Below are positions 8,117 through 46,255 of a DNA stretch of 64,000 bases, one piece after another (positions within the stretch are counted from its first letter, which is position 1; each line of letters begins with the position of its first letter). The translations under genes and the position numbers were made by a program. Under the pieces are notes generated by a model. The model made no database searches and was not told where the DNA came from. It worked only from the letters and a program-made list of their open reading frames with translations. This DNA is from an uncultured Deferribacteres bacterium (GTDB lineage: Bacteria; Zhuqueibacterota; JdFR-76; DREG01). The stretch spans positions 14,484 to 78,483 of the forward strand of contig CAJVYQ010000008.1 in NCBI GenBank assembly GCA_913009825.1, in the 5' to 3' direction.

Positions 8117-8397
8117 AACTATTCAGGCATGCTCTATATATTACCTAAATTGAGCGATTGTAGGGCGATTCGCTGAATCGCCAACCGGATTTACATTAAA
8201 AATGAAAATCCGTTTAGCCATTTAAAACAAACTCAAAAACAAGAGAATCGCCAATTCAGGTATTAACTATAATAACACTTCGACTAAGTTTATCCTGAAC
8301 TTATCGAAAAAGAAGGCTCGGCATGGTTTTTCTGCCCGGTCTGAGCGAAGCCGAAAGCCTACTGTGCGTTAAATAACCGGCATACCTGAATAGGTAC
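8117..8397. repeat. Family-4 MITE-like element (TIR GTAACTAYTCAGG) interrupted by a nested family-1 MITE
   Basis: The left terminus caactattcaggcatgc (8117-8133) pairs with the right terminus gcatacctgaataggtac (8380-8397). The internal segment cttcgactaagtttatcctgaac matches the copy at 15420-15604. Confidence 0.7.
8143..8261 (-). repeat. Family-1 MITE copy A (119 bp) with 3-bp target-site duplication ATT
   Basis: Its termini are acctaaattgagcgattg and gaatcgccaattcaggt, and it contains the internal perfect hairpin ggcgattcgctgaatcgcc. The flanking trinucleotide att occurs at 8140-8142 and again at 8262-8264. Confidence 0.8.
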
Positions 8398-8731
8398 AAA
8401 AAGTTAGGAAAATGGATGGTTTAAATCAAGAATAATTTGGAGAAGCGAAATAGATTGATGGGTCACCGGAGCAGCGGAATACTGAATTGAACGAATGTAA
8501 CCTTTACATAATTGGAGCGATTTTTTCATTTACAAGGATGCAAATCATTAAGATTCCTGCTTTCGCAGGAATGACACTCATTATTCGCCCCGGCAGGGGT
8601 TGAACTCCTGCCCAAGCATAAGAATTTGTGGAAAAGCCGCATGTTAGCTGCTGTTTCTTAATTCCCTAAAAAATGGATAACCGTAACTTTAAAAACCATC
8701 CGGCCAGATCTCTTTTTCGAGCTAAAGCTCG

Positions 8732-8854
8732 ACCAACTGAATTACTGTTTTTGAGTTTGTTTTAAAGGTCTAACGTGTTTTCATTTTTTCAGGTAAATCC
8801 ATAGAAATCAGGTTGGCGATTCAGCGAATCGCCCTACAATCGCTCAATTTAGGT
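8732..8854 (+). repeat. Family-1 MITE copy B with a decayed left TIR
   Basis: The right half ggttggcgattcagcgaatcgccctacaatcgctcaatttaggt is intact, while the left TIR is reduced to accaactgaatt. It is inverted relative to copy A, so the pair forms roughly 100-bp inverted repeats around a 470-bp repeat-rich core. Confidence 0.7.
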
Positions 8855-25705: not shown

Positions 25706-26770
25706 TCACTCGCCGAACTTCTCCCGCAATTTCGCTCTTCTGTCGGCAAAAAATGGTTCCGCATCTTTGCGGGTGTACGTTCTACCGGCAAAATCACGTG
25801 TGAACAGGTTGGCCAGGAACCGGTTTTCAAAATCGGCAATGCGTTTGCCGTAAATGTGGAAAGAATCCGATTCATCTAGGTAGCGTCCGATTTTCACCTC
25901 CCGACCAATCCGTTTACTAACTTCGGCGGCAACATATTCCATGATATGGATGAAGGCAAAACAGTTCATAAAAGAGGCATCGTAAGCGTCACGGCTGCGA
26001 AAACGGATATTCATATTTAAGGTTGGGTTACCTTTTTCATCGTTCAGGATTCGGAACCACATACTCTGCAGACAAGCAGGATCGTAGATATCCGTATCCA
26101 TGTACGGCTGCCAGGTGATCGCCTGAGCCTGGCGGGTGAAGGGCTGCGCAGCAAGTTTTTCGATGATATATTCAATCTGATCGATCCGGACAAAAGTTTG
26201 TTTTTTCCCGTTAACTTCTGTTTCAACCGTTTTTACATAATTGTGGTCGAAGAGAAAATGGGCCGTTTCCCGTTCATGGAATCTTTTCTTTTCCAGATCC
26301 GGTAAGCTGCATAAGAATCGATCGAATTCACTTAAAGGAACCTGGTAGGCAAAAAGTCTTTCATGGTAAGTGTATTGCCACCGGGTGTCTTCGGGATCCA
26401 ACGGATTCCGAACCCAATGATCTTTGATTCCGTCCCGGACTTCCTGCACATACTCCTCCAGGTCTTCAAAACCGCCGGGGATCCCGCCCATGTGGATCAT
26501 CGGTTCCGCTGCCGCATTTTCAATGGAAATCAAAATTGAACAATCTTTACTGGGGGGATCAAGGTAGTTTCCATTTTTATCTTTGGCATCGTACTGGGTT
26601 CGAATCCCGCAGCCGTAGGCATAAAGTCCCAGCATGGCATTCTCCCAGGCCTCAGCCAGGGAAACTCCCGAAACGGCAACCACAGGAATGTTTCCGTTTT
26701 CAGCCGGACTGATAAGATGAATTTTGGCCTTTTTCTGCCGGAGTATTTCATGCAAAAATTTGGTTTCCAT
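25706..26770 (-). CDS. Divergent thymidylate-synthase-fold protein (ThyA / pyrimidine hydroxymethylase family), 354 aa
   Basis: The C-terminal half aligns with the ThyA catalytic core. QAITWQP corresponds to ThyA RIIVSAWN, and PAC provides the nucleophile Cys as in the ThyA PCH motif. NIRFRSRDAYDASFMNCFAF corresponds to [20 protein letters not shown], and DSFHIYG corresponds to DTHLYSNH. The N-terminal region of about 150 aa has no counterpart I recognise, and only one Arg of the RR phosphate-binding pair is retained. Confidence 0.6.
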   Translation of the reverse strand: METKFLHEILRQKKAKIHLISPAENGNIPVVAVSGVSLAEAWENAMLGLYAYGCGIRTQYDAKDKNGNYLDPPSKDCSILISIENAAAEPMIHMGGIPGGFEDLEEYVQEVRDGIKDHWVRNPLDPEDTRWQYTYHERLFAYQVPLSEFDRFLCSLPDLEKKRFHERETAHFLFDHNYVKTVETEVNGKKQTFVRIDQIEYIIEKLAAQPFTRQAQAITWQPYMDTDIYDPACLQSMWFRILNDEKGNPTLNMNIRFRSRDAYDASFMNCFAFIHIMEYVAAEVSKRIGREVKIGRYLDESDSFHIYGKRIADFENRFLANLFTRDFAGRTYTRKDAEPFFADRRAKLREKFGE

Positions 26771-29120: not shown

Positions 29121-29549
29121 TTAGTTTTTATTCTGAATCAATTCGGCTTCCGAAAAGAAAAATGCTGCCTCTAGTTTAGCATTTTCCGGAGAATCCGAAC
29201 CGTGAACAATATTGTTTTGTTTACTGGAAGCAAATTCTTTGCGAATGGTCCCTTCGGCAGCTTCTGCCGGATCCGTAGCCCCGATAAGTTTGCGAAAATC
29301 TTCCACGGCATTCTCTTTTTCCAACACCATGGGAACACATCGACCGGATGACATAAATTCCACTAATTCACCATAAAAATGGCGTTCTTTGTGCACAGCA
29401 TAAAATGCACCGGCGGTTTTTACATCCATTTTGGTTAACTTCATAGCAACCAGCTCAAAGCCGGCCTGTAAAATTCTATCTAAAACTTTACCGGCGAAAC
29501 CTGCTTTTATACAATCAGGTTTAAGTATTGCTAATGTTCTTTCTTTCAA
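29121..29549 (-). CDS. ndk: Nucleoside diphosphate kinase
   Basis: The NDK motifs are present ([10 protein letters not shown] ... NIVHGSD). Confidence 0.93.
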
Positions 29550-29568
29550 TTCAGCCTCCGTCAGTTTA

Positions 29569-29885
29569 CTCAGCCCGCCTGATAGTGAACCATCAGGCTA
29601 AGAAAAGGCAGCGCTATAAATAGCGCTGCCGGGCAGGATGCTTTAGCATCCTTTTTACTCTCAGCCCCGTGGTTCTCCACGGGGCGCCATGGCATAGATT
29701 GAGTGCTTTCTTTTTAACCCGACTGAATCAGCTCAGCCCGCCTGATAGTGAACCATCAGGCTAAGAAAAGGAAGCGCTATAAATAGCGCTGCCGGGCAGG
29801 ATGCTTTAGCATCCTTTTTACTCTCAGCCCCGTGGTTCACCACGGGGCGCCATGGCTTAGCCAGGCAGCCCGCTCGAAAGTCGGG
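29569..29885. repeat. Tandem duplication of two roughly 163-bp units of a multi-hairpin element (family 5)
   Basis: Unit 1 is about 29569-29731 and unit 2 about 29732-29885, and they are about 97% identical. Each unit carries four hairpins: cctgatagtgaaccatcagg, cagcgctataaatagcgctg, ggatgctttagcatcc and ccccgtggttctccacgggg. A related single unit sits inside 39205-39363. Confidence 0.85.
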
Positions 29886-29889
29886 AATG

Positions 29890-30495
29890 CTACTGAATTT
29901 CTATCTTTTCTTTTTGAGCAAATTCATCGGCAAAATTAAATCCGATATCCAGCGCTCTCAGATTCATCTCCTGGGTTCCCTTGGGGGCGCGGCGTTTAAC
30001 CGAAGCAGTGAGCGCCTCTTTGGAAACCACATCAATTAATCCTACCACAATCCCCAGCGCGATTACATTGGAATAGATGGTTCGTCCCATTTCCCGAAGC
30101 GCCAGATCGATAATAGGCAATTGAATTAATTTATGAGGAGGATTATTCAAATTGGGCACCAAGTTGGAATCGACCAGCACCAGCGCATCATCGGCTAAAT
30201 CCCGGAAAAACCGGTTATCTGGATTGTTCCCGCCGTAAAACCGGTCGTATGATCTTTGTGCCAACGACATAAAAAAATTGATCTCTCTGGTTTGCGGATA
30301 AGTAATCACATCGGAACTTATCACCACATCTACCTTGGTTGCTCCGCCGCGAACCTGCGCTGTGTAAGTGGGACTTTGCAGTGCGTATTTTTGATCGAAT
30401 AAAACAGCAGCCTCAGCAAAAATGGCACCGGCAAGAATAACGCCCTGACCTCCCACACCGCTAAAGCGTAAATCTATTCTTTTCTTTTCCATCAT
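29890..30495 (-). CDS. 2-oxoacid:ferredoxin oxidoreductase gamma subunit
   Basis: The 201-aa product belongs to the POR/KOR gamma family (GVGGQGVILAG). Confidence 0.85.
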   Translation of the reverse strand: MMEKKRIDLRFSGVGGQGVILAGAIFAEAAVLFDQKYALQSPTYTAQVRGGATKVDVVISSDVITYPQTREINFFMSLAQRSYDRFYGGNNPDNRFFRDLADDALVLVDSNLVPNLNNPPHKLIQLPIIDLALREMGRTIYSNVIALGIVVGLIDVVSKEALTASVKRRAPKGTQEMNLRALDIGFNFADEFAQKEKIEIQ

Positions 30496-31319
30496 TTATT
30501 CTCCTTCTGCTGAACTTTTTCAATTAACATACGGGTACGTTCAGTGTATTCCAGTTTAGAGTCATCCTTAATAAATTCGCCCATGACATATTTCCCTGCC
30601 AATTTTTCTTCACTCATCTTTTCGGCTTTTCTCATCGCAACCCCGCGTTCCTTTATCCAATGCAGCATATCAACGGGATCGCCTAACCTGTTACGACGGC
30701 CAAACTGCACCGGACAAGTAGATTCGGCAACGACCAAACTGGCGCCTTTATGCGCAAATGAAGCTTTGATATACTTTTCCAGAATCAAACCCTGGGCAAC
30801 GGTACCACGGGCTACATAAGTAGCGCCGGCGCCGATAGCCAATTTAGCAATATCAAAATTAGGCTCGACATGTCCGTAAGGAGAAGTGCTGGCATAACTT
30901 CCCGGCGGCGTGGTGGGTGAATATTGTCCGCCGGTCATGCCGTAAATGTTGTTATCATTGATGATCATATTGATATCGATGTTACGGCGGCAAAAATGGA
31001 TGAAATGATTGCCGCCGATAGCGGTGGAATCACCATCCCCGGCAACAACGATGACATGCTTATCCGGCCGGGCCATTTTCAGGCCGGTTGCAAATGCCAG
31101 GGCGCGGCCATGTGTTGTGTGAACCGTATTGAAATCAACATAACCCGGCATTCTGCTGGTACAGCCAATTCCCGAAACAAGAACAATATCATCATTTTTC
31201 CATCCCATGGCATCAACCGAACGTAAGATGGCCTTCAATAAGATGCCGATACCGCAACCGGGACACCACATGTGTGGAATATATTGATTGCGAAGATACT
31301 TGCTATAGTCAAAAGTCAT
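30492..31319 (-). CDS. 2-oxoacid:ferredoxin oxidoreductase beta subunit (TPP-binding)
   Basis: It has the TPP-binding motifs (WCPGCGIG ... GDGDSTAIGGNHFIH) and a 4-nt overlap with the gamma subunit. Confidence 0.88.
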   Translation of the reverse strand: MTFDYSKYLRNQYIPHMWCPGCGIGILLKAILRSVDAMGWKNDDIVLVSGIGCTSRMPGYVDFNTVHTTHGRALAFATGLKMARPDKHVIVVAGDGDSTAIGGNHFIHFCRRNIDINMIINDNNIYGMTGGQYSPTTPPGSYASTSPYGHVEPNFDIAKLAIGAGATYVARGTVAQGLILEKYIKASFAHKGASLVVAESTCPVQFGRRNRLGDPVDMLHWIKERGVAMRKAEKMSEEKLAGKYVMGEFIKDDSKLEYTERTRMLIEKVQQKENK

Positions 31320-31320
31320 T

Positions 31321-32454
31321 TTATATTACCTCCTGCAATTTGGCCAATATTTCTCGGGGACGAATCAATTGTCCGCCTACCTCCTGAACGCCGACAATGT
31401 CTGCATTTCCATTTGCCGCACGCTGAACCTCTAAAATCAATTGTCCCAAACTCATTTCCGGCACAATAATTTTTTTTACCTGTTTCGCTATTTCCAAAAC
31501 CCGTTTCTCCGGAAAAGGCCAGATTGTTAGAGGACGCAGCAAACCGACTTTTATACCCTGTTTGCGAGCTTCATCGATGGCATCGATGGCGGAACGGCCA
31601 ACCGACCCAAAGGCAACAACGGCGATCTCAGCATCATCCAGATGATATTCATGATTACTCAAAATTTGATCCGTATTGCCTATGATTTTCCGTTGTCTTC
31701 TCATTTGAATGGCATCGACTTCCTCCACATCAGTGGTGGGAAAACCGGACTTGCCATGACTCAATCCGGTGATATGAAACCGGTAACCTTCGAAAAAGTT
31801 TGCCATCGGCGGTACATCACCAAAGCGATCATCGAACGGGAGATATTCTTCGGGCGGCACCGTCGGTTTGGTTCTGTCGACGATTTCAAGCGAACCGGGA
31901 TCCGGAAGCTGTACACCTTCGTGCAAATGCCCCAGAATTTCATCTAACAAAATGATCACAGGAATACGAAATTTTTCCGATAGATTGAAGGCACGAATCG
32001 TTTCACTGTAGATCTCATCCATGAAAGCAGGAGTTACGGCAATAATTTCATGATCGCCATGAGTTCCCCAGCGCACCTGCATCAGATCAGATTGGGAAGG
32101 CGCCGTGGGAAGACCGGTGCTTGGCCCGCCGCGCATCACATCGACAATAACACAGGGAGTTTCAGAAATACACGCATAGCCCAGATTTTCCTGTTTCAGT
32201 GAAAAACCGGGACCGCTTGTTGCCGTCATTGCTTTTTCCCCGGCAAGCGAAGCACCGATGATTGCACCCATGCTGGCAATCTCATCTTCCATCTGCATAA
32301 AAATCCCCCCGACTTTTGGTAATTTTCTTGCCAGCTGCTCAGCAATTTCCGAAGACGGTGTGATCGGATAACCGGCAAAAAAACGACAACCGGCGTCAAT
32401 GGCTGCCTGGGCAATAAGATCGTTTCCGCCCCATAATTCAAGTTTATTACTCAC
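31321..32454 (-). CDS. 2-oxoacid:ferredoxin oxidoreductase alpha subunit
   Basis: The 377-aa product belongs to the POR/KOR alpha family. Its position upstream of sucCD suggests a 2-oxoglutarate specificity, but this cannot be decided from sequence. Confidence 0.85.
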   Translation of the reverse strand: MSNKLELWGGNDLIAQAAIDAGCRFFAGYPITPSSEIAEQLARKLPKVGGIFMQMEDEIASMGAIIGASLAGEKAMTATSGPGFSLKQENLGYACISETPCVIVDVMRGGPSTGLPTAPSQSDLMQVRWGTHGDHEIIAVTPAFMDEIYSETIRAFNLSEKFRIPVIILLDEILGHLHEGVQLPDPGSLEIVDRTKPTVPPEEYLPFDDRFGDVPPMANFFEGYRFHITGLSHGKSGFPTTDVEEVDAIQMRRQRKIIGNTDQILSNHEYHLDDAEIAVVAFGSVGRSAIDAIDEARKQGIKVGLLRPLTIWPFPEKRVLEIAKQVKKIIVPEMSLGQLILEVQRAANGNADIVGVQEVGGQLIRPREILAKLQEVI

Positions 32455-32537
32455 GATTACCTCCGCTTTCAGGTTTTTTGTGTGGATTTCAAAATATTAA
32501 GTTTAAACTGCTTAAAATTTGAAGTCACTAAAATTAG

Positions 32538-32693
32538 ACCTAAATTGAACGATTCTTAGCCTGAAACAACCACCCAAAGAGTTTTGTCATTCTGCCTGCC
32601 CGACGAACCGCAGGCGGGAAAGAATCTTGTTAGTTCTGTGCGCTAAACCAACAAGATTCCTACGGAATGACATTAGAATCGCTCAATTCAGGT
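32538..32693. repeat. Family-2 MITE (same 18-bp TIR as family 1, with a different core) flanked by TSD TAG
   Basis: The termini are acctaaattgaacgattc and gaatcgctcaattcaggt. The flanks read tag at 32535-32537 and tag at 32694-32696. The core contains gtcattctgcctgcccgacgaaccgcaggcgggaaagaatc and gtcattccgtaggaatc. Confidence 0.8.
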
Positions 32694-32737
32694 TAGAATA
32701 AAGTACCTCTCTGTTTCATTTTAGTTACTGTAAAATT

Positions 32738-32992
32738 TCATGATATTTCAATGGCAAAATCGGGACATTCTATCTCGCAAAGCATACATTTTGTACACTT
32801 TTCCAGATCGATGACTTCCACCACATAGCCCTCCCACTTGGCCGGGTCTTTGCGCATTGCCAATACATTTTGCGGACAAACATCCACACAAATGTCGCAT
32901 GCCTTACAATTCTCATTGATAATTTCAATTTTTGCAGGAGATTTATCTTTCTTTTTTGCCGCCTTTGGAGCAGCAACAGCTGCATCTGCCAT
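32738..32992 (-). CDS. 2-oxoacid:ferredoxin oxidoreductase delta subunit (2x[4Fe-4S] ferredoxin)
   Basis: The 84-aa product has two CxxCxxCxxxCP motifs (CKACDICVDVCP, CTKCMLCEIECP). Confidence 0.85.
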   Translation of the reverse strand: MADAAVAAPKAAKKKDKSPAKIEIINENCKACDICVDVCPQNVLAMRKDPAKWEGYVVEVIDLEKCTKCMLCEIECPDFAIEIS

Positions 32993-33037
32993 AATCTAAC
33001 TCCTTTTAATGATAAAATCATTTTAGTTCGACAACAG

Positions 33038-33313
33038 TTAATCCAACTTTTTTAAATGTTCGATTATATTTTTTTTTGTAATCTCATCAAAATCATTTCC
33101 GTACATTCTCAAAAACAACAATTCCCGAAATTCTTTCCCGGACAGCTTTGGCGGAAACGAGGAAATTGTTATTTCTCTGGCCATATCATACATTGAAATC
33201 CCCATCATAAACCGCTCTTCATTCGATCGGTTCATGATCATTTCTCTGAATCTCTTTTTTATATGCTCCGGTGTATCATTCATGACAACATTCCAAGTAC
33301 AAGTCATAAACAC
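33038..33313 (-). CDS. Hypothetical 91-aa protein, partner of the nucleotidyltransferase (possible TA or defence pair component)
   Basis: It overlaps the upstream NTase gene by 38 nt and is AT-rich. I recognise no conserved domain. Confidence 0.4.
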   Translation of the reverse strand: MFMTCTWNVVMNDTPEHIKKRFREMIMNRSNEERFMMGISMYDMAREITISSFPPKLSGKEFRELLFLRMYGNDFDEITKKNIIEHLKKLD

Positions 33314-33818
33314 TTAAATTCTTGGCCCATTTTTGCACATAGTTTAAATCATATTTCCCGGACAAAAGATTTTTAATATCATTCATTTGCATTTCAGAAT
33401 GAGAATCCATGGCCCATAGTAATTTAGATAAAATCAAATCTTCTAAACTGACATAAAACGTTTCAAAATCGCTAATTTTTTTCTTTTTCCTTCGTTTAAA
33501 CTCATTACGGTGAAACTCATCATCTTTTCGAATTATGCAATCAATTTTTATAACACTCTGATTGTTTATCATATTAAACATCGAATAATACTTAATTGAA
33601 TCTTTTAATGCATCTTCAGAAATATAATAGTCATCTTTAAACAGATCAAAAAATCTTGATGCTTCTGCTAAAGATAACTCAATTACAATATCAATATCAC
33701 GTGTCATCCTTGGTAAAACATAATAATTCATTGCAACTGATCCGGTGATCATAAAAGGGATGCCTGCATTTATTAACTTTTCAGACACATCCTGAATTAT
33801 TTTAAGTTCATAATTCAT
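33276..33818 (-). CDS. Minimal nucleotidyltransferase-fold protein (MNT/AbiEii-like)
   Basis: It has the GS...DxD motif [24 protein letters not shown]. The 180-aa product is markedly AT-rich relative to its neighbours and is inserted between korD and sucD. Confidence 0.55.
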
Positions 33819-34692
33819 AAACTTTCATCGCCTTTTGAACCGTAACCCCAATTTCCGCGGGACTTTCCACAACATGGATACCCGCCGCTTTCAACGCTTT
33901 CATTTTATCGGCTGCGCTTCCTTTACCGCCGGAAATGATGGCGCCGGCATGCCCCATTCTACGCCCCGGAGGTGCCGTACGGCCGGCAACAAAACCGACC
34001 ACCGGTTTGTCCACATTTTTTTTAACAAATTCCGCGGCTTCCTCTTCGGCGGTACCGCCGATTTCACCAATCAGCACAACCGCTTTTGTATCGTTATCTT
34101 TTTGATAATAGGCCAATGCATCGACAAAAGTGGTACCGATTACCGGATCGCCGCCAATACCGATACAAGTAGACTGGCCGATTCCCAATCCGGCAAGTTG
34201 ATGAACCGCTTCGTAGGTCAAAGTTCCGCTGCGGGAAATAACGCCAACCGGCCCGGGTATATGAATAAAACCCGGCATAATGCCGACTTTACATTTTCCC
34301 GGAGAAATGATTCCCGGGCAATTCGGACCAATTAAACGAGCAATGCGGGAAAGCAGGTAATTTTTTACATTCACCATGTCCACGGTGGGAATCCCTTCCG
34401 TGATGCACACAACCAATTTCACGCCAGCGTCGGCAGCTTCCATAATGGCATCGGCAGCAAAAGGCGGCGGCACAAAAATAACCGATGTGTTCGCACCTTC
34501 TTCCTCCACCGCTTCCGCAACTGTGTTGAAAATAGGAACTTTATCATCAAATTTCCGGCCTCCCTTTCCGGGAGTAACACCGGCGACAACCTGAGTACCG
34601 TATTCTATCATCTGTTTAGTATGAAAAGAACCTTCTCCACCGGTAATTCCTTGTACCACCAATCGAATCGATTCGTCAATGAGAATGCTCAA
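33808..34692 (-). CDS. sucD: Succinyl-CoA synthetase alpha subunit
   Basis: It has the CoA-binding and phospho-His regions ([10 protein letters not shown] ... [14 protein letters not shown]). Confidence 0.93.
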
Positions 34693-34735
34693 TTTTTCCT
34701 CCTAAATTTATTATTTTTATTTTCGTCTTTTTTCA

Positions 34736-35896
34736 TCATTTATGAATTGTTGCAACTACTTTCTCCGCGCCGTCTTTAAGGGTGGTAGCTACAGTAAATT
34801 CCAGGTCGGAATTATTCAGAATTTCAGCCGCTTCTTCCGCGTTCGTTCCTTGCAATCTGATGACAACCGGAACATTGATATTCACTTTGGAAACGGCATC
34901 GATCACGCCTGTGGCAACGCGGTCACAGCGAACAATGCCGCCAAAAATATTTATAAGCACTGCTTTCACGTTTTTGTCCCCCAGCAAAATTTTAAAACCG
35001 TTCTCCACAGTTTCCGCGCTGGCGGATCCGCCCACATCCAGAAAGTTGGCCGGTTCCGATCCGGCTAATTTGATAATGTCCATTGTAGCCATTGCCAGGC
35101 CGGCGCCATTCACCATGCAGCCCACTTCGCCATCCAGTTTGATGTAGTTCAGATTGTATTTGGAGGCTTCCACCTCTAACGGTTCTTCTTCGTTCAGGTC
35201 ACGGTATTCAACCAGATCTTTGTGACGAAACATGGCATTGTCATCTAAATTGATTTTTGCGTCCAGGGCAAGAACACGGCCGTCTTTAGTAACCACAAGC
35301 GGATTAATTTCCGCCAGGGATGCGTCAACGGCCACAAAAGCTTTATACAGGGCCATCAGGAACTTAACCCCGTTTTTAAACTGATCTCCGCTTAATCCCA
35401 AACCGAATGCCAGTTTTCCGGCCTGGAAGGGCAGCAATCCGGCAGCCGGATCGATATACTCTTTCAAAATCTTTTCCGGAGTTTCCGCGGCAACTTTTTC
35501 GATTTCTACGCCGCCCTCTGTGCTTGCCATGAAGACCAATTGGGATTTTGCCCGGTCTAACACCACACCGACATACAGTTCCCGCGCAATATCCATGGTC
35601 TCTTCAATCAGCACCTTATGAACCTGTTTTCCTTCCGAACCGGTTTGATGTGTAACCAGCGTCATGCCGATCATTTCGGCGGCCAGTTTTTCCGCTTCTG
35701 CAACGCTGCCGGCTAATTTCACACCGCCGCCTTTGCCGCGGCCGCCGGCATGAATTTGCGCCTTTACCACTACCTTACCGTGCAACTCTTCGGCCACCTC
35801 CCGGGCTTCACCGGGTGTAAATGCAACTTTGCCCTGCGGTACGGCTACACCGAAGCGTTTCAAAATTTCTTTTGCCTGATATTCATGAATTTTCAA
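34736..35896 (-). CDS. sucC: Succinyl-CoA synthetase beta subunit
   Basis: It has an ATP-grasp domain ([12 protein letters not shown] ... [17 protein letters not shown]). Confidence 0.93.
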
Positions 35897-35989
35897 AAGA
35901 ACCTCCGCTTAAATTTGAATTTAAAGATTGATGAATTATCAACAAAAACAACATTGTTTCACATATAACCGGTATTCACTTATTTAGAT

Positions 35990-36094
35990 CCTGAATTGAG
36001 CGATTCTAATGTCATTCCGTAGGAATCTTGTTAATTTATTGCTAATATTTAAAAAGATTCCTCCTGAATGACATGAGAATTGCTCAATTTAGGT
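35990..36094. repeat. Family-2 MITE copy (about 105 bp) abutting and providing the 3' end of the hepT remnant
   Basis: Its first 43 nt (cctgaattgagcgattctaatgtcattccgtaggaatcttgtt) are identical to the right end of the 32538-32693 copy. The right terminus gaatgacatgagaattgctcaatttaggt overlaps the hepT stop codon at 36089-36091. Confidence 0.75.
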
Positions 36095-36409
36095 ATCACA
36101 TACTTCGAAAATCACCTCTGCATTAATTTCAAAATAGTGATGACTAATAATATCATGCATCACCCTGGCTCCTTTCCAATTGATATCAGCATACAGGGAA
36201 AGAAGTTTTCCGTTGGTAATTTTATCAAAATTTTTCAGACTCTCTCCGACAGCAATTAATTGCATACAAATTGAATCTAATTTTTCCATACCGGCAGGAG
36301 AATTTGTAAAATCGGCAACATTATTTAGCGGTATAAATCTATCTCATATAATGTCCAATGACTTGAGAATTTGAGAAAGAATTTCAGAGACAAGTTCTCT
36401 ATCATACAT
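36089..36409 (-). pseudogene. hepT: HepT (DUF86, HEPN RNase) toxin gene interrupted by an in-frame TGA and with its C-terminus running into a MITE terminus
   Basis: The ATG at 36409-36407 overlaps the mntA stop. It reads MYDRELVSEILSQILKSLDII, then TGA at 36346-36344, and the same frame continues DRFIPLNNVADFTNSPAGMEKLDSIC...INWKGARVMHDIISHHYFEINAEVIFEVCDT with the HEPN Rx4-6H motif. Other genes in the window terminate on TGA, so recoding is unlikely. Confidence 0.65.
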
Positions 36410-36704
36410 CAATAACATCCCGTTCGATTCTTTTTTTCAATTGAATATTCATTCCATCACGCAATCGGATAGTATCCACTTTAACACCAAAATAGTCTTC
36501 CAGATCAACTTTAATACTACCCAGAAGAAATAAGTCCGGCTTTTTCTGTTCAACAATAATATCGATATCACTTTGTTGATCAAATGTTCCTCTCGCCACC
36601 GATCCAAAAACACCAATTTTCACAAACTGATATTTTCCTTGATATTTGTTTTTATATGGCTTTATTTTTCTTAAAATTTCAGATTGATTCATTGACAAAC
36701 TCAT
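36402..36704 (-). CDS. mntA: MntA-type minimal nucleotidyltransferase antitoxin
   Basis: The 100-aa product has the motif GVFGSVARGTFDQQSDIDIIVE (GS...DxD) and is immediately upstream of, and overlapping, the DUF86 gene. Confidence 0.8.
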   Translation of the reverse strand: MSLSMNQSEILRKIKPYKNKYQGKYQFVKIGVFGSVARGTFDQQSDIDIIVEQKKPDLFLLGSIKVDLEDYFGVKVDTIRLRDGMNIQLKKRIERDVIDV

Positions 36705-36755
36705 TATGTTGTGAAAAACCCATTTTTTTTAACTATAAGTTTCACAAATAAAAAA

Positions 36756-37718
36756 TCACAGCATGTGCACAATTCTTGTCCCGGTTAATCCTTTCATTGC
36801 ATCCACATGTTTTTCTATAGATGTGATCATTACTATTTCGCCACCCGATTCCAAAAACCGAATAGCCGCTTCTATTTTCGGCCCCATACTTCCGGCCGGA
36901 AATTGACCTGCGGCCAGGTATTTCTTTGCTTCGGCAACGGTAATTCGATCCAAAGCTTTCTGATTTGGTTTTGCATAATTGAGATAAACTTTCTCAACGG
37001 CGGTTAAAATGTAAAGTTCCCTGGCGCCGATCTCCGTGGCCAGAACAGCCGAAGCCAGGTCTTTATCGATAACACCGTCGACACCTTCATACGTGCTGTC
37101 CTTTTCGATGTAGATCGGGATACCACCGCCGCCGACGGTAATGACAATCACTCCTTCATCAAATAAACGCCGGATGGTATTTTTTTCCACAATCCGGATC
37201 GGTTTCGGGGATGGAACCACACGCCGCCAACCCCGGCCCGGGTCTTCCCTGATAGTCCATCCTCTTTCCTTTTTGAATTTTTCCACATCCTCTTTGCGGA
37301 AAAAAGGACCGACAAATTTTGTGGGATTCCGGATTGAAGGATCATCACGGTCAACGATGACCTGGGCGAGGAGGGTAACGATTTCCCGGTCTATATTTTC
37401 CCTGATCAGTTTATTTTGCAGCGATTGTCCGATCATGTAGCCCATACCGCCACATAAATCGGCTACCAATACGCCAAGAGGTACCGGCGGCACCTGGTCG
37501 CGGGCAATCTCTACACGGATGAGAGCATTGCCTATTTGAGGGCCATTGCCATGACTAACTGCCAGCAAATAACCCCGATCAATCATTTCCCGCACACCAA
37601 GCAAACTACGCCTTGTATTGGCAAATTGCTGGTAAATGTTTCCTTCCTCGAATTCACGAGTTATAGCATTTCCCCCTAAGGCGACAACAGCTCGCTTATT
37701 CGCATCTATATTTCTCAT
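36756..37718 (-). CDS. arcC: Carbamate kinase
   Basis: The 320-aa product aligns end to end with enterococcal carbamate kinase (VVALGGNAI, VSHGNGPQIGN, NPTKFVGPFF, GRGWRRVVPSPKPIRIVE, GGGGIPI, GVDGVIDKDLAS, PGSMGPKIEAAIRFLESGG). Confidence 0.9.
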   Translation of the reverse strand: MRNIDANKRAVVALGGNAITREFEEGNIYQQFANTRRSLLGVREMIDRGYLLAVSHGNGPQIGNALIRVEIARDQVPPVPLGVLVADLCGGMGYMIGQSLQNKLIRENIDREIVTLLAQVIVDRDDPSIRNPTKFVGPFFRKEDVEKFKKERGWTIREDPGRGWRRVVPSPKPIRIVEKNTIRRLFDEGVIVITVGGGGIPIYIEKDSTYEGVDGVIDKDLASAVLATEIGARELYILTAVEKVYLNYAKPNQKALDRITVAEAKKYLAAGQFPAGSMGPKIEAAIRFLESGGEIVMITSIEKHVDAMKGLTGTRIVHML

Positions 37719-39037
37719 TGTTTTGCTAAAAAGTCATTGACAATTTTTCTTAAATCAGGTTCACCGATCACCTGCAGATCATAGCGCACACGGGTTGCCG
37801 GCTTGTCAATTTTAACCACTTTCCGCAAATCGATAGGCGTAGCTACCACAACGGTGTCACACTCCACCCGGTTGATGGTTTTTTCCAGATCAGCAACCTG
37901 TTTATCGCCGTACCCCATGGCCGGCAGTAAAGTCCCGATGTAAGGATATTTTTTAAAGGTCGCGGCAATAGATTCAACCAGATAGGGCCGCGGATCGACA
38001 ATTTCTGCAGCGCCCAGTTTTTTTGCCGCCACAATGCCGGCGCCATATTTCATTTCACCGTGAGTAAGCGTTGGGCCGTCTTCGACAACCAAAACTTTTT
38101 TACCGCGGATCAGAGAAGGATCATCTACCGAAATAGGAGAAGCTGCATCTACAACCAAAGCTCCGGGATTCACCTTTTGAATCGATTCCCGCACTTTCTG
38201 GATATTTTCCCAGTCAGCAGATTCTTCTTTATTGATGATAACAACATCCGCCATCCTCAGGTTGGTTTCTCCGGGAAAATAGGTTAGTTCGTGCCCCGGA
38301 CGATGGGGATCGACAATTGTTATGAACAGATCCGGTTTGTAAAAGGGCAAATCATTGTTGCCGCCGTCCCAGAGAATAACATCCGCTTCTTTTTCTGCTT
38401 CCGCCAAAATATCACCGAAATCCACACCGGCGTAAACCACATTACCGGCAGCGATATGAGGTTCATATTCTTCCATCTCTTCGATGGTACATTTATTCTT
38501 AATCATATCATCATAATCGGCAAAACGCTGCACCCTTTGCGCATTCAGATCTCCGTAGGGCATGGGATGACGAATGGCCACTACTTTCTTACCGGCATCT
38601 TTCAATATTTTGCTGACATACCTGGTAGTTTGACTTTTCCCGCATCCGGTGCGCACAGCGCAAATGGCAATCACCGGCTTTTTGCTCTTAAGCATTGTTT
38701 GTTCACCGCCCATCACCATAAAATTGGCGCCGGCTGCCATCACTTCCGAAGCTTTGTGCATCACATATTCATGACGGACATCACTGTAAGAAAATACGAC
38801 CAGTTCCACCTCTGATTTTTTGATTAAATCCGTTAACTCCGCTTCCGGATAAATAGGAATTCCATTGGGATACTCATTTCCGGCTAATTCCGTCGGATAT
38901 TTTCTCCCTTCTATATTGGGAATTTGTGTTGCCGTAAACGCGACAACATCATATTCATCGTTCCCGCGAAAATAGGTGTTGAAATTATGAAAATCCCGGC
39001 CTGCCGCACCCATGATGATCACTTTTTTCTTAGCCAT
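37715..39037 (-). CDS. P-loop NTPase of the COG2403 / cyclic-2,3-diphosphoglycerate-synthetase-like family (tentative)
   Basis: The 440-aa product has an N-terminal Rossmann-like segment (KVIIMGAAGRDFHNF), a Walker A motif AVRTGCGKSQTT, a Walker B / G3-like motif ILWDGGNND and a G4-like motif INKEES. Its stop overlaps the arcC start by 4 nt (ATGA coupling). Confidence 0.5.
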   Translation of the reverse strand: MAKKKVIIMGAAGRDFHNFNTYFRGNDEYDVVAFTATQIPNIEGRKYPTELAGNEYPNGIPIYPEAELTDLIKKSEVELVVFSYSDVRHEYVMHKASEVMAAGANFMVMGGEQTMLKSKKPVIAICAVRTGCGKSQTTRYVSKILKDAGKKVVAIRHPMPYGDLNAQRVQRFADYDDMIKNKCTIEEMEEYEPHIAAGNVVYAGVDFGDILAEAEKEADVILWDGGNNDLPFYKPDLFITIVDPHRPGHELTYFPGETNLRMADVVIINKEESADWENIQKVRESIQKVNPGALVVDAASPISVDDPSLIRGKKVLVVEDGPTLTHGEMKYGAGIVAAKKLGAAEIVDPRPYLVESIAATFKKYPYIGTLLPAMGYGDKQVADLEKTINRVECDTVVVATPIDLRKVVKIDKPATRVRYDLQVIGEPDLRKIVNDFLAKQ

Positions 39038-39204
39038 TTTTTACTCCATTTCTTTATAGGGTTTAAGAAATTTTTACCCACACTACTTCAAAAAAAATAG
39101 CACCCATTTCCGGAATGGATGCCAAAATACAAACGACCGACAAACCCTGTCATAACGTGCCAAACTTTTTAATGTCGTTACACTTGCGTTAACATACAAA
39201 TAAT

Positions 39205-39363
39205 GTAACTATTCAGGTGTTTTCTTTCAATCTTTTCACCTTGCCGTGAACGACAAGGCTAAGAAATGAAATGGCGCTAAAGCGTCCTATTTACGATAGC
39301 ATCCTTCAGGATGCTTTCATGTCTTAGCCTGAGGGTTCACTCTCAGGCGACCTGAATAGTTAC
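39205..39363. repeat. Family-4 TIR element (159 bp) carrying a family-5-type hairpin core
   Basis: The TIR gtaactattcaggtg (39205-39219) pairs with cgacctgaatagttac (39348-39363). The core (ggctaagaaatgaaatggcgctaaagcg...ggatgctttcat...cctgagggttcactctcagg) parallels the unit of the 29569-29885 tandem. Confidence 0.75.
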
Positions 39364-39543
39364 CAAATAATAAACACTTATTTACAAAATAACGATGAAA
39401 TTTAACATATTTTTATTTATATATCAACCCTTTTGTCACAAAATCGTGGATATAACAAAATATTTACATCAATATCTGAGATGACAAAATTCAATCCGAA
39501 TTGCCGGCTTTTAGACCGGAAAGGTTGATTAGTTACAGGCGGG

Positions 39544-40560
39544 TCAAACCGTACTGCTTCTATCAGCAAGAACAGGAAAGGTTTCCCCTTTATCTTGATC
39601 AATCGAGTAATATTGCACCAACAGATTGTCGATTTCTTCCCCCGTTTCCAACAGATGAACGGAGCTGCGGATTCTGCTTGCCCCCGGTTTTCCTTTAAGA
39701 TAAAACGCTAAAAATTTCCGTATCTCTTTTAGGGCGCGTTTTTCTCCCCGGTATTGAATCGCTAAATACAAATGTTCCCGGATTAATTGTAAAAATTCAA
39801 AATTTGTCGGAGAAAAAGGTTCCCGGCCGCTTAACAACTCCTGAATCTGACGGAAAATCCAGGGATTACGAAGAGCTCCCCGGGCAACCATAACAAAGTC
39901 ACAACCTGTTTCCTTCATCATCCGGATTGCATCCTCAGCCTGCCAAATATCGCCGTTGCCAATGATGGGAATTGTCAGATTTTGCTTCACTTCCTTAATC
40001 AAATTCCAGTCTGCCGCACCGGAATATCCCATAGATCTGGTACGCGGGTGAACCGTGACCGCCTGAATCCCGGCAGCTTCCAGTCTCCTCGCTGCTTCTG
40101 TAACTACAATCGTGTTTCTGTCCCAGCCGGAGCGAATTTTAGCCGTGACGGGGAGTGATACGGCACCGGCCACCGCAGCAGCAATTTTTTCCAAACGCGG
40201 TAAATCTTTCAACAGGGCTGCACCGGCCCCTTTTTTAACGACTTTTGGTACCGGACAGCCGAAATTGAGATCAATCAGATCGGGGCTGTAATTTTCCACA
40301 ATTTGGGCTGCGTTGGCCATAATTTCCGGCTCGCTGCCAAACAACTGAATACCGAAAGGCCTTTCATTCTTTTCAAATTCCAACAATTCCAGTGACTTTT
40401 CATTTTCCCGGACCAGGCCATCTGCGCTGACAAATTCACCAAAAAGAAGCGAGGCGCCGGTTTTTTTTAAAATTCGCCGAAATGCTTTGTCCGTATAGCC
40501 TGCCATTGGCGCCATCAATGCCGGAGAAGAAAATTTTATTTGCGAAAATTTTAGTACCAT
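39544..40560 (-). CDS. dusB: tRNA-dihydrouridine synthase
   Basis: The 338-aa product has the Dus signature (LMAPMAGYTDKAFRRI ... DLNFGCP ... the catalytic region around GNGDI). Confidence 0.88.
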   Translation of the reverse strand: MVLKFSQIKFSSPALMAPMAGYTDKAFRRILKKTGASLLFGEFVSADGLVRENEKSLELLEFEKNERPFGIQLFGSEPEIMANAAQIVENYSPDLIDLNFGCPVPKVVKKGAGAALLKDLPRLEKIAAAVAGAVSLPVTAKIRSGWDRNTIVVTEAARRLEAAGIQAVTVHPRTRSMGYSGAADWNLIKEVKQNLTIPIIGNGDIWQAEDAIRMMKETGCDFVMVARGALRNPWIFRQIQELLSGREPFSPTNFEFLQLIREHLYLAIQYRGEKRALKEIRKFLAFYLKGKPGASRIRSSVHLLETGEEIDNLLVQYYSIDQDKGETFPVLADRSSTV

Positions 40561-42184: not shown

Positions 42185-42303
42185 ACCTGAATTGAGCGAT
42201 TCTCTTGTTTTTGACCTTGTTTTTTTTACTAAACGGATTTTCATTTTTAATACAAATACGGCTGGCGATTCAGCGAATCGCCCTACAATCGCTCAATTCA
42301 GGT
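42185..42303 (+). repeat. Family-1 MITE copy C (119 bp) with TSD CTC, nested inside a second palindromic element
   Basis: The termini are acctgaattgagcgattc and gaatcgccctacaatcgctcaattcaggt (the last 18 nt are the TIR), with the internal hairpin ggcgattcagcgaatcgcc. The flanks read ctc at 42182-42184 and ctc at 42304-42306. The outer inverted repeats are ctctaaaaagacccggcaggttt (42158-42180) and aaacctgccgggtctaaaac...tttttagagt (42353-42396). Confidence 0.85.
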
Positions 42304-42498
42304 CTCAATTATATTTGGGGAAATTTAATATTTATCATCAACAACTTAGCTAAAACCTGCCGGGTCTAAAACGGGATAATTATGGTTTTTAGAGTCGTTT
42401 CATGGATATTTCAAAAAATTAAATTGACAAAAACAGATCGATAATTTACGGCGCACCGTAATGATGCGCCGCAAAGTATCTTTGGGAGCATGAGCAAT

Positions 42499-45962: not shown

Positions 45963-46082
45963 ACCTAAATTGAGCGATTTTCTTGTTTTTAAGCTTAATG
46001 CTGAAACCAAAAAGGTTTTCATTTCTAATAGTAATCTCTGCTGGCGATTCAGCGAATCGCCTTACAATCGCTCAATTTAGGT
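45963..46082 (+). repeat. Family-1 MITE copy D (120 bp) with TSD TTG
   Basis: The termini are acctaaattgagcgatt and aatcgctcaatttaggt, with the internal hairpin ggcgattcagcgaatcgcc. The flanks read ttg at 45960-45962 and ttg at 46083-46085. Confidence 0.85.
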
Positions 46083-46255
46083 TTGAATAAACTTTTTATA
46101 AATACCACTACCAAAAGTAGTGGTTTTTTGAATTAATAAACTGCCGCGACATCTACTGCACTATACAGCAAAAATGTCCGGTTTATAATTTTCTCTGCCT
46201 GCCAATCAACTTTACAAGCCCGGCATCACTACTTTTGATCCGTTACTAAACTTCT

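What the first reader, a model, noticed from the sequence alone, without database searches (positions are those of the whole stretch)
36756..39037. Carbamate kinase translationally coupled to a COG2403 / cPGS-like P-loop NTPase
The arcC-type carbamate kinase is unmistakable. Its start overlaps by 4 nt the stop of a 440-aa protein with a Rossmann-like N-terminus, Walker A GCGKSQTT, a DGG Walker B / G3 motif and an NKEE G4-like motif. I tentatively place this protein in the cyclic-2,3-diphosphoglycerate-synthetase / predicted-GTPase family. No arcA, arcB or arcD (arginine deiminase pathway) genes accompany the carbamate kinase. This is therefore not a classical ADI operon. The fused pair may instead represent an uncharacterised phosphoryl-transfer or carbamoyl-phosphate-handling module.
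Basis: partly seen in the sequence, partly recalled or inferred. Interest (0 to 1): 0.6.

Follow-up and report, generated by a model that had tools for sequence, protein, structure and literature searches.

The report
Arginine synthetase plus carbamate kinase operon
The mystery "GTPase-like" gene overlapping the carbamate kinase gene is most likely arginine synthetase (ArcE), an enzyme described in 2024 that makes ATP while converting arginine to citrulline, so this pair is a bacterial copy of a known energy-yielding arginine pathway, not a new system.

Summary
A 440-aa ORF (37715-39037, minus strand) ends in ATGA, which overlaps the start of a 320-aa carbamate kinase (36756-37718). The reported P-loop, DGG and NKEE motifs are all present.

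The "uncharacterised module" reading is out of date. The 440-aa protein belongs to the family characterised as ArcE arginine synthetase (T. kodakarensis TK2200; Arg + ADP + Pi <-> Cit + NH3 + ATP), which replaces arginine deiminase.

Evidence:
- It is 49-67% identical over its full length to homologs in genera the 2024 paper names as arcE carriers: Hyperthermus, Caldisericum, Coprothermobacter and Thermoflexus.
- Its structural neighbours are the ones reported for TK2200p (LpxK 4EHY), plus a distant match to cPGS (17% identity).
- In 80 species-level loci, 31 have a carbamoyl-phosphate enzyme gene nearby: carbamate kinase directly downstream in 20, OTC in 6, pyrB in 12.
- One metagenomic protein is a natural carbamate kinase-ArcE fusion.

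The pair sits in a conserved string, arcE-arcC-sucCD-(korABC)-ndk, which suggests an ATP-yielding catabolic role. OTC is not in the window.

I could not retrieve TK2200 itself, so the family assignment is indirect. Verdict: new member of a known kind, of modest interest. Public annotation ("cPGS", "GTPase") is probably wrong.

The parts
37715..39037 (-). arcE-like gene, 440 aa: putative arginine synthetase (ATP-forming arginine deiminase). Three domains: a Rossmann-like N-terminal domain, a P-loop core and a C-terminal domain.
   Evidence: Translation. It is 49% identical (E 1e-153, full length) to Hyperthermus butylicus WP_011822540.1 and 67% identical to Caldisericum exile WP_014453496.1. 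The AF2 model has pLDDT 91.3. Foldseek finds cPGS and then LpxK 4EHY.
38624..38647 (-). P-loop (Walker A-like) GCGKSQTT, aa 131-138. G131, G133, K134, S135, Q136 and T137 are invariant in 35 homologs.
   Evidence: In one metagenomic homolog (P0223) an intein is inserted exactly between K134 and S135.
38351..38371 (-). WDGGNND motif, aa 223-229 (Walker B-like), invariant in the family. The aligned cPGS segment reads LEGSGAT.
38057..38083 (-). EDGPTLTHG motif, aa 319-327. It is invariant in ArcE-like proteins, kept as EDSPTVTHG in Hyperthermus, and has no counterpart in the cPGS alignment.
36756..37718 (-). arcC, carbamate kinase, 320 aa.
   Evidence: NCBIfam PRK12352 354.5 bits (cut-off 266). 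TIGR00746 scores 350.5, just under its cut-off of 358.25. PDB 1E19 matches at E 6e-86.
37715..37718 (-). ATGA junction: the arcE stop codon TGA overlaps the arcC start codon ATG.
   Evidence: The same -4 overlap occurs in 5 other loci, and junctions of 0 to +13 nt in 6 more.
39038..39543 (-). 506-nt region upstream of arcE. It contains a ~160-nt multi-hairpin repeat element (39203-39364) and a terminator-like hairpin followed by T8 (39098-39124), about 60 nt before the arcE ATG.
   Evidence: There is no Rfam match. The element is not found upstream of arcE in other species.
36089..36704 (-). Lineage-specific insertion between arcC and sucC. It consists of a MntA-like nucleotidyltransferase antitoxin gene (36402-36704) and a frameshifted HepT-like toxin remnant (36089-36343).
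   Evidence: The insertion is absent from the syntenic loci L084 and L001, where arcC is followed directly by sucC.
29121..35896 (-). Conserved downstream neighbours: sucC (34736-35896), sucD (33808-34692), ferredoxin (32738-32992), korA/B/C (29890-32454) and ndk (29121-29549). An AbiEii-like insert lies at 33276-33818.
   Evidence: The string arcE-arcC-sucCD-(korABC)-ndk recurs in 11-12 loci from several phyla.

Best explanation
The two overlapping genes encode steps 1 and 3 of the 'arginine synthetase pathway'.

- Step 1: the 440-aa P-loop protein is an ortholog of ArcE. ArcE reversibly converts L-arginine + ADP + Pi (Mg2+) into L-citrulline + NH3 + ATP. It takes the place of the hydrolytic arginine deiminase ArcA.
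- Step 2: an ornithine carbamoyltransferase encoded elsewhere in the genome splits citrulline with phosphate into ornithine and carbamoyl phosphate.
- Step 3: the overlapping downstream gene encodes carbamate kinase (ArcC), which transfers the phosphate of carbamoyl phosphate to ADP.

The net yield is 2 ATP per arginine, against 1 for the classical pathway. The ATGA overlap should give co-transcription and coupled translation of the two ATP-forming enzymes.

Shown here: the gene structures, family relationships, fold, and recurrent linkage to carbamoyl-phosphate enzymes.

Taken from the literature: the reaction chemistry, measured for T. kodakarensis TK2200.

Inferred: that this bacterial protein has the same activity, that the pathway runs in the catabolic direction, and that an OTC exists elsewhere. 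My own mechanistic inference is that phosphate attacks the guanidinium carbon to give an O-phospho-isourea (phosphocitrulline) intermediate, which then donates its phosphate to ADP at the P-loop.
For: 1. Family. The protein is 49% identical (E 1e-153) over 437 aa to Hyperthermus butylicus WP_011822540.1 and 67% identical to Caldisericum exile WP_014453496.1. It is 67% identical to genes in Coprothermobacter platensis and Thermoflexus. Relatives also occur in Pyrodictium and in green algae. These are exactly the taxa PMC11032458 lists as carrying arcE homologs, 'a few eukaryotes' included.

2. Same descriptors as TK2200. It is annotated 'putative GTPase', has only low similarity to cPGS, and has A. 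aeolicus LpxK 4EHY as a structural neighbour (searches compared).

3. Gene context. In 80 species-level loci, CK is the next gene downstream on the same strand in 20 of 71 evaluable loci. OTC is present in 6, for example arcE-OTC-CK in Coprothermobacter. pyrB is in 12 loci, directly downstream in 10 Bacteroidales/Bacteroidota loci, and pyrI was confirmed in L027. In total 31 of 80 loci carry at least one carbamoyl-phosphate enzyme gene.

4. Rosetta stone. P0126 (766 aa) is an in-frame fusion of a CK (44% identical to the window CK) with a complete ArcE (48% identical).

5. Direction. The conserved string arcE-arcC-sucCD-(fdx-korABC)-ndk groups enzymes that phosphorylate ADP or NDP. The window also encodes amino-acid and organic-acid fermentation enzymes.

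6. The CK is closest to the P. furiosus CK 1E19.
Against: - TK2200 itself could not be retrieved, so homology to the characterised enzyme rests on taxa named in the paper, not on a direct alignment.
- No OTC, arginine transporter or ArgR is present in the 64-kb window.
- No bacterial ArcE has been assayed.
- 49 of the 80 loci show no carbamoyl-phosphate gene within 10 kb.
- The reaction is near equilibrium (dG0' -6.8 kJ/mol at 80 C), so the direction in this organism is open.
- TIGR00746 (arcC equivalog) scores 350.5, slightly under its trusted cut-off of 358.25.
- The fusion protein is known from a single 2.8-kb contig.
Confidence: 0.8

Rival explanations
1. Same enzymes, opposite direction. 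The pair forms a low-cost, ammonia-dependent arginine biosynthesis module. Carbamate kinase makes carbamoyl phosphate from carbamate + ATP, substituting for CPS. OTC makes citrulline. ArcE then makes arginine from citrulline + NH3 + ATP, substituting for ArgG/ArgH.
For: ArcE is reversible and supports arginine synthesis in vivo when citrulline is supplied. The authors propose a biosynthetic role in organisms that lack ArgG/ArgH. Pyrococcus CK can make carbamoyl phosphate at high ammonium and bicarbonate concentrations.
Against: In T. kodakarensis CK could not supply carbamoyl phosphate. The conserved linkage here is to sucCD, kor and ndk, not to arg biosynthesis genes. The genome content for argG, argH and carAB is unknown.
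Confidence: 0.12
2. The main role is anabolic supply of carbamoyl phosphate from arginine via ArcE + OTC, for pyrimidine synthesis and similar needs. Carbamate kinase only bleeds off the excess.
For: This was shown genetically for T. kodakarensis. arcE sits directly upstream of pyrB (pyrI confirmed in L027) in 10 Bacteroidales/Bacteroidota loci. A NodU/CmcH-type carbamoyltransferase lies between CK and OTC in L053.
Against: In this window arcE is paired with CK, not pyrB. arcC disruption had little effect on carbamoyl-phosphate supply in T. kodakarensis. Whether this genome has CPS is unknown.
Confidence: 0.1
3. The 440-aa protein belongs to the ArcE family but acts on a different guanidino or ureido substrate in bacteria. 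This would be a truly uncharacterised module.
For: No bacterial member has been assayed. 49 of 80 loci have no carbamoyl-phosphate gene nearby.
Against: Conservation is very high across bacteria and archaea (64-73% in the top 80 loci; about 150 invariant positions among 35 close homologs), including between CK-linked, OTC-linked and pyrB-linked copies. TK2200 is strictly specific for L-arginine.
Confidence: 0.04
4. It is a cyclic 2,3-diphosphoglycerate synthetase, as NCBI names many family members.
For: cPGS is the only PDB sequence match and the top Foldseek hit. The source names are listed.
Against: The match is only 31-42 bits over part of the protein, with 17% identity and TM about 0.44. 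Matches within the ArcE-like family score 430-990 bits. The family motifs WDGGNND and EDGPTLTHG are not kept in cPGS. The host is a mesophile-like Bacteroidota bacterium, and the gene context is carbamoyl-phosphate enzymes.
Confidence: 0.02
5. It is a G3E-type GTPase or metallochaperone (CobW/HypB/UreG-like).
For: Pfam cobW scores 20.7 bits, exactly at its cut-off. An NKxD-like motif is present (NKEE here). HypB, UreG and MeaB appear among weak Foldseek hits.
Against: The Pfam match covers only profile positions 113-179. There is no metal-binding CxCC-type motif and no hydrogenase, urease or cobalamin context. The characterised homolog prefers ADP, with GDP giving 8.4% of the ADP rate.
Confidence: 0.02

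Closest known systems
ArcE arginine synthetase / ATP-forming arginine deiminase (Thermococcus kodakarensis TK2200; Michimori, Yokooji & Atomi, PNAS 2024, PMC11032458) and the 'arginine synthetase pathway' ArcE-ArcB-ArcC
   Same: The protein family appears to be the same, judged from homologs in the taxa the paper lists. The fold neighbours are the same (LpxK 4EHY, distant cPGS). The 'putative GTPase' annotation is the same. The linkage to arcC and/or arcB is the same, as is the absence of arcA nearby.
   Different: The host is a bacterium (a Bacteroidota MAG), not a hyperthermophilic archaeon. arcE and arcC overlap here, whereas in T. kodakarensis they are dispersed (TK2200, TK2158, TK0871). 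OTC is not adjacent. The pair is embedded in an arcE-arcC-sucCD-kor-ndk string. The activity is untested.
Classical arginine deiminase operon arcABC(D)
   Same: It contains carbamate kinase as the terminal ATP-forming step, and the overall logic is the same: arginine to ornithine + CO2 + 2 NH3 with substrate-level phosphorylation.
   Different: There is no ArcA (the guanidino-group-modifying hydrolase fold). Deimination is done instead by a P-loop enzyme that conserves the energy as a second ATP. No arcB or arcD lies in the cluster.
Cyclic 2,3-diphosphoglycerate synthetase (Methanothermus fervidus cPGS, PDB 8ORU/8ORK; 9SXB)
   Same: It has the same overall P-loop architecture and a similar length (436-460 aa), and it is the only relative with a solved structure.
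   Different: Identity is 17% and HMMER scores are 31-42 bits over a partial region. The ArcE signature motifs are missing. The substrate and the biological role (a thermoprotective solute in methanogens) are different.
LpxK tetraacyldisaccharide 4'-kinase (Aquifex aeolicus, PDB 4EHY)
   Same: It shares the P-loop kinase core with a compact P-loop (Foldseek E about 1e-8, TM about 0.5-0.67 on the target).
   Different: Identity is 13-14%. LpxK is a membrane-associated lipid kinase, and it lacks the N- and C-terminal domains of ArcE.

Membership tests
ArcE arginine synthetase | Full-length sequence homology to the characterised enzyme TK2200 | not testable with these tools
   The TK2200 sequence could not be retrieved. 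Three homolog searches and three cluster look-ups never listed a Thermococcus entry. The afdb50 library was unavailable, and the paper's supplements are not held.
ArcE arginine synthetase | Close homology to the proteins of organisms that the defining paper lists as arcE carriers | tested here: met
   Caldisericum exile 67%, Hyperthermus butylicus 49% (E 1e-153, 437 aa), Coprothermobacter platensis 67% and Thermoflexus 67%. Pyrodictium and green-algal members were also found (against the list).
ArcE arginine synthetase | P-loop NTPase fold with LpxK (4EHY) as structural neighbour and only low similarity to cPGS | tested here: met
   AF2 model pLDDT 91.3. Foldseek: cPGS E 1e-17 at 17% identity; LpxK 4EHY E 4e-8. 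HMMER against cPGS gives 31-42 bits.
ArcE arginine synthetase | Genomic association with arcC and/or arcB | tested here: met
   arcC overlaps arcE in the window. CK lies downstream in 20 of 71 evaluable loci and OTC is present in 6 loci. One CK-ArcE fusion protein exists.
ArcE arginine synthetase | Complementary distribution with ArcA (no arcA in a genome that has arcC) | tested here: inconclusive
   There is no arcA in the 64-kb window or in the 10-kb flanks of the 80 loci. The rest of the genome cannot be read.
ArcE arginine synthetase | Catalysis of Arg + ADP + Pi <-> Cit + NH3 + ATP, specific for L-arginine and requiring Mg2+ | not testable with these tools
   This needs a biochemical assay.
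Carbamate kinase (ArcC) | Amino-acid-kinase fold with a CK-specific profile match and similarity to solved CKs | tested here: met
   PF00696 89.7 bits. PRK12352 354.5 bits, above its cut-off of 266. 1E19 E 6e-86 and 1B7B E 2e-70. The TIGR00746 equivalog model scores 350.5, marginally below its cut-off of 358.25.
Classical ADI operon (arcABCD) | Presence of arcA (arginine deiminase), arcB (OTC) and arcD (antiporter) next to arcC | tested here: not met
   None of the three is in the window. All ORFs of 300 aa or more were annotated.
Cyclic 2,3-diphosphoglycerate synthetase | Family-level sequence similarity to M. fervidus cPGS across the whole protein | tested here: not met
   The matches are partial (query residues about 208-398), score 31-42 bits and show 17% identity. 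The ArcE motifs are not shared.
G3E GTPases (CobW/HypB/UreG) | Full-domain match to PF02492 and an intact NKxD guanine-specificity motif | tested here: not met
   cobW scores 20.7 bits, exactly at its cut-off, and covers only profile positions 113-179 of 180. The motif reads NKEE here.

The most novel reading that the evidence does not exclude
In bacteria of the FCB group (Bacteroidota, Calditrichota, Marinimicrobia, Ignavibacteriota) and WOR-3, ArcE-ArcC is part of a conserved 'substrate-level phosphorylation island': arcE-arcC-sucCD-fdx-korABC-ndk. This island could co-ordinate a so far undescribed fermentation of arginine, through ornithine, glutamate, 2-oxoglutarate and succinyl-CoA to succinate, yielding three or more ATP per arginine. 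ArcE and CK may associate physically, as the natural CK-ArcE fusion suggests. Alternatively, the pair could run in reverse as a 2-ATP route to arginine that is independent of CPS and ArgGH in ammonia-rich anoxic habitats.
Probability: 0.2. Interest if true: 0.55.

Novelty: new member of a known kind. Interest (0 to 1): 0.33.

Why it matters
ArcE was described only in 2024 and only in one archaeon. This locus, and the 80-locus survey around it, show three things. First, the arcE-arcC unit is widespread and tightly organised in uncultured anaerobic bacteria. Second, it is linked to other ATP-forming enzymes, or to pyrBI in Bacteroidales/Bacteroidota. Third, Pfam and NCBIfam have no model for it, and NCBI names many family members 'cyclic 2,3-diphosphoglycerate synthase' or 'GTPase'. 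Correcting that annotation would change metabolic reconstructions of arginine use and ATP yield in many MAGs. As a discovery in its own right, the finding is largely anticipated by the 2024 and 2026 papers.

Tried and rejected

2. Riboswitch idea. The strongly structured ~160-nt element upstream of arcE (z = -6.6) has no Rfam match. It is absent upstream of arcE in other species. Related copies lie elsewhere in the same window. I therefore rejected it as an arcE-specific regulator. Two pattern scans of metagenome contigs found nothing.

3. The cPGS and G3E-GTPase assignments were tested and rejected.

4. A search for OTC, arcA and arcD across the whole window found none.

5. The 610-aa gene upstream of arcE in Ignavibacteria-type loci is GlmS, which is ordinary synteny and not a pathway component.
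Full report
**Observation**

The window carries two co-directional ORFs on the minus strand: 37715-39037 (440 aa) and 36756-37718 (320 aa). The stop of the first and the start of the second share ATGA.
- GCGKSQTT at aa 131-138
- WDGGNND at aa 223-229
- NKEE at aa 269-272

The downstream protein is a carbamate kinase:
- Pfam AA_kinase, 89.7 bits
- NCBIfam PRK12352, 354.5 bits against a cut-off of 266
- TIGR00746, 350.5 bits, just under its cut-off of 358.25
- best solved relative: the Pyrococcus furiosus CK 1E19, E 6e-86

The 440-aa protein has no NCBIfam model. Its only Pfam match is a borderline partial hit to cobW (20.7 bits). Every ORF of 300 aa or more in the 64-kb window was annotated, and none is an arginine deiminase, an ornithine carbamoyltransferase or an arginine/ornithine antiporter.

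**What the 440-aa protein is**

Sequence search of the PDB finds only cyclic 2,3-diphosphoglycerate synthetases. The matches score 31-42 bits over part of the protein, whether the query is the single sequence or a 35-sequence profile.

A literature search turned up Michimori, Yokooji and Atomi (PNAS 2024, PMC11032458). [quoted passage not shown] The authors named the enzyme arginine synthetase (ArcE). It replaces ArcA in organisms that have ArcC. Its homologs are sometimes next to arcB and/or arcC. It shows only low similarity to cPGS. Its structural neighbour in their analysis was LpxK of Aquifex aeolicus, 4EHY.

I tested each of those descriptors on the window protein.

1. *Homologs in the named taxa.* The window protein is:
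   - 67% identical to Caldisericum exile WP_014453496.1
   - 49% identical (E 1e-153, 437 aligned residues) to Hyperthermus butylicus WP_011822540.1
   - 67% identical to genes in Coprothermobacter platensis and a Thermoflexus MAG

   Family members were also found in Pyrodictium occultum and in the green algae Pycnococcus and Pseudoscourfieldia. All of these are genera or groups the paper names as arcE carriers; it mentions "a few eukaryotes".

2. *Fold.* An AlphaFold2 model (pLDDT 91.3) matches cPGS first (E 1e-17, 17% identity) and then a series of A. aeolicus LpxK entries, including 4EHY.

3. *Conservation.* The family is very strongly conserved. The 80 best species-level loci are 64-73% identical, across Bacteroidota, Calditrichota, Chloroflexota, Marinimicrobia, Ignavibacteriota, WOR-3, Coprothermobacter and even Thermoplasmatota and Bathyarchaeia. 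About 150 positions are invariant among 35 close homologs. Signature blocks such as GAAGRDFHNFN, RHPMPYG, WDGGNND and EDGPTLTHG are kept in Hyperthermus but not in cPGS.

I could not obtain the TK2200 sequence itself, so the final link is indirect (see the tried-and-rejected field).

**Gene neighbourhood**

I called ORFs in the 80 loci and clustered them without prior labels. The neighbour families found in the most loci were carbamate kinase (20 loci) and carbamoyltransferases (17 loci).

- *Carbamate kinase.* In 18 of the 20 loci it is the next gene downstream on the same strand, with junctions of -4 to +208 nt; in the other two an OTC lies between arcE and CK. Five loci share the ATGA-type overlap. 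That is 20 of the 71 loci with enough downstream sequence to evaluate.
- *Carbamoyltransferases.* By NCBIfam and BLAST these are true OTC in 6 loci. Examples are arcE-OTC-CK in Coprothermobacter platensis and arcE-OTC-CK-pyrB in a Bacteroidota MAG. Aspartate carbamoyltransferase is present in 12 loci and lies directly downstream of arcE in 10, all Bacteroidales or Bacteroidota MAGs; pyrI was confirmed after pyrB in L027.
- *Total.* 31 of 80 loci carry at least one carbamoyl-phosphate enzyme gene within 10 kb.
- *Fusion.* A metagenomic protein, P0126 (766 aa), is an in-frame fusion of a carbamate kinase (44% identical to the window CK) with a complete ArcE (48% identical). The domain order is CK then ArcE, the reverse of the operon order, so it is not a read-through artefact of adjacent genes. 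It is known from a single contig.

The pairing is therefore not unique to this genome, and the functional link to carbamoyl-phosphate metabolism is strong.

**Wider context and likely direction**

In the window the order is:
dcw cluster ... ftsA - ftsZ - (156-aa ORF) - rpmB - dusB - arcE - arcC - [mntA, frameshifted hepT] - sucC - sucD - [AbiEii-like insert] - fdx - korABC - ndk ... plsX - fabHDGF.

A relative with a 79%-identical ArcE has the same string without the toxin-antitoxin inserts: arcE-CK-sucC-sucD-fdx-korABC-ndk-yceD-plsX-fabH. Eleven of the 20 CK-linked loci have sucCD straight after arcC, often followed by kor genes and/or ndk. In a WOR-3 genome ndk follows arcC directly.

All of these enzymes phosphorylate ADP or NDPs, or feed such a step. 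The window also encodes other enzymes typical of an anaerobic amino-acid or organic-acid fermenter:
- alanine dehydrogenase
- an acyl-CoA dehydrogenase
- a butyryl-CoA:acetate CoA-transferase
- a malic enzyme/PTA fusion

I therefore favour the catabolic, ATP-yielding direction (2 ATP per arginine). This is inference. The ArcE reaction is near equilibrium, and OTC must be encoded elsewhere.

**Rivals**

- *Biosynthetic direction.* ArcE would replace ArgGH and CK would replace CPS. This is possible and cannot be excluded without the genome. Against it, CK could not supply carbamoyl phosphate in T. kodakarensis, and the linkage here is to energy genes.
- *Carbamoyl-phosphate supply for pyrimidines.* This was shown in T. 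kodakarensis in 2026 (PMC13260591). It fits the arcE-pyrB loci better than it fits this arcE-arcC locus.
- *cPGS and G3E GTPase.* Both assignments fail their membership tests.
- *A different substrate.* This is unlikely given the conservation between CK-, OTC- and pyrB-linked copies.

**Upstream region**

The 506-nt region between dusB and arcE contains a strongly structured ~160-nt element (z = -6.55), followed by a terminator-like hairpin about 60 nt before the ATG.

It is not in Rfam. It is not found upstream of arcE in other species. Two related copies lie at 29.57-29.86 kb, and 13 of 40 predicted pairs show compensatory changes. It is therefore a lineage-specific structured repeat, not an arcE riboswitch.

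A marine-metagenome contig carries a 100%-identical ArcE. Its identity to the window begins at the outer edge of this element, and its upstream genes are different.

**Verdict**

It is a bacterial instance of the published arginine synthetase pathway, so it is a new member of a known kind. Its residual interest lies in:
- the conserved arcE-arcC-sucCD-kor-ndk string
- the arcE-pyrBI linkage in Bacteroidales/Bacteroidota loci
- the CK-ArcE fusion
- the widespread misannotation of the family

Noticed in passing
window 39203-39364 (-); related copies at 29572-29686 (+) and 29735-29849 (+): A ~115-160-nt multi-hairpin element is present in three copies. Conserved single-stranded blocks (GGCUAAGA, GCUUUAGC) are combined with compensatory changes in 13 of 40 predicted pairs. 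The fold z-score is -6.55. There is no Rfam match. My covariance model finds it only in this genome's contigs, and two pattern scans of metagenome contigs found nothing. It may be a lineage-specific sRNA or structured repeat.
   Followed up: partly
window intergenic sites 8143-8254, 8384-8847, 32538-32693, 36023-36094, 39204-39364, 42185-42315, 45963-46094: Dispersed intergenic elements are bracketed by inverted termini ACCTRAAT(TGAGCGATT)...(AATCGCTCA)ATTYAGGT. Fifteen of the 19 occurrences of the 8-mers lie in the 15% of the window that is intergenic. They look like a MITE/REP-type repeat family, and copies flank the arcE-arcC-mntA-hepT block.
   Followed up: partly
L082 (marine metagenome contig, 8424 nt) compared with window 36000-39560: A 100%-identical ArcE, with the same upstream structured element, arcC, and a downstream mntA-like gene and HepT-like fragment, lies behind different upstream genes (MFS transporter, APH-like kinase, NTP-transferase). 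Identity with the window begins at the outer edge of the repeat element. This points to a rearrangement, or to mobility of the block at the repeat.
   Followed up: partly
P0126 (766 aa, single Logan contig of 2817 nt): A natural in-frame fusion of carbamate kinase (N-terminal) with a complete ArcE (C-terminal). The domain order is the opposite of the operon order.
   Followed up: partly
P0223 (806 aa, ENA contig); corresponds to window aa K134|S135, nt ~38633-38638: A LAGLIDADG intein is inserted in an ArcE homolog exactly inside the P-loop (GK|S). This marks the motif as functionally critical.
   Followed up: partly
L011, L012, L027, L029, L036, L039, L044, L055, L074 (and L059, more distant): In these Bacteroidales or Bacteroidota MAGs arcE is followed directly by pyrB instead of arcC (pyrI confirmed in L027). 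This echoes the 2026 finding that the ArcE pathway supplies carbamoyl phosphate for pyrimidines.
   Followed up: partly
L001, L004, L013, L015, L017, L020, L021, L026, L028, L040, L068, L084; window 29121-39037: The string arcE-arcC-sucC-sucD-(fdx-korABC)-ndk is conserved across several phyla. It clusters enzymes that phosphorylate ADP or NDP.
   Followed up: yes
window 36089-36704 and 33038-33818: Toxin-antitoxin-type insertions interrupt the conserved string relative to L084. One is mntA plus a frameshifted hepT (a 22-codon stub followed by an 84-codon HepT-like frame). The other is an AbiEii-like ORF with a 91-aa partner.
   Followed up: partly
public names of P0024, P0088, P0106, P0399, P0415, P0451 and others: NCBI names many ArcE-family proteins 'cyclic 2,3-diphosphoglycerate synthase' or 'GTPase'. 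Pfam (2025) and NCBIfam release 20 have no model for the family. The misannotation is probably systematic.
   Followed up: partly
L007, L046, L048, L063; P0139 cluster: ArcE homologs in Thermoplasmatota, Aciduliprofundum and Bathyarchaeia are 65-69% identical to this Bacteroidota protein, and homologs also exist in the green algae Pycnococcus and Pseudoscourfieldia. This implies strong constraint and probably inter-domain transfer.
   Followed up: no
L053 5750-7573: A NodU/CmcH-type carbamoyltransferase (Carbam_trans_N/C) lies between arcC and OTC in a Melioribacteraceae locus. It is a fourth kind of carbamoyl-phosphate-using enzyme linked to arcE.
   Followed up: no
window 25706-26770 (-): A 354-aa ORF has only a weak, partial thymidylate-synthase match (Pfam 31 bits; archaeal-type TIGR03283 100.7 bits, below its cut-off of 174.55). 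It lies in a segment (NfnAB-like genes plus this ORF) that is absent from the syntenic locus L084.
   Followed up: no
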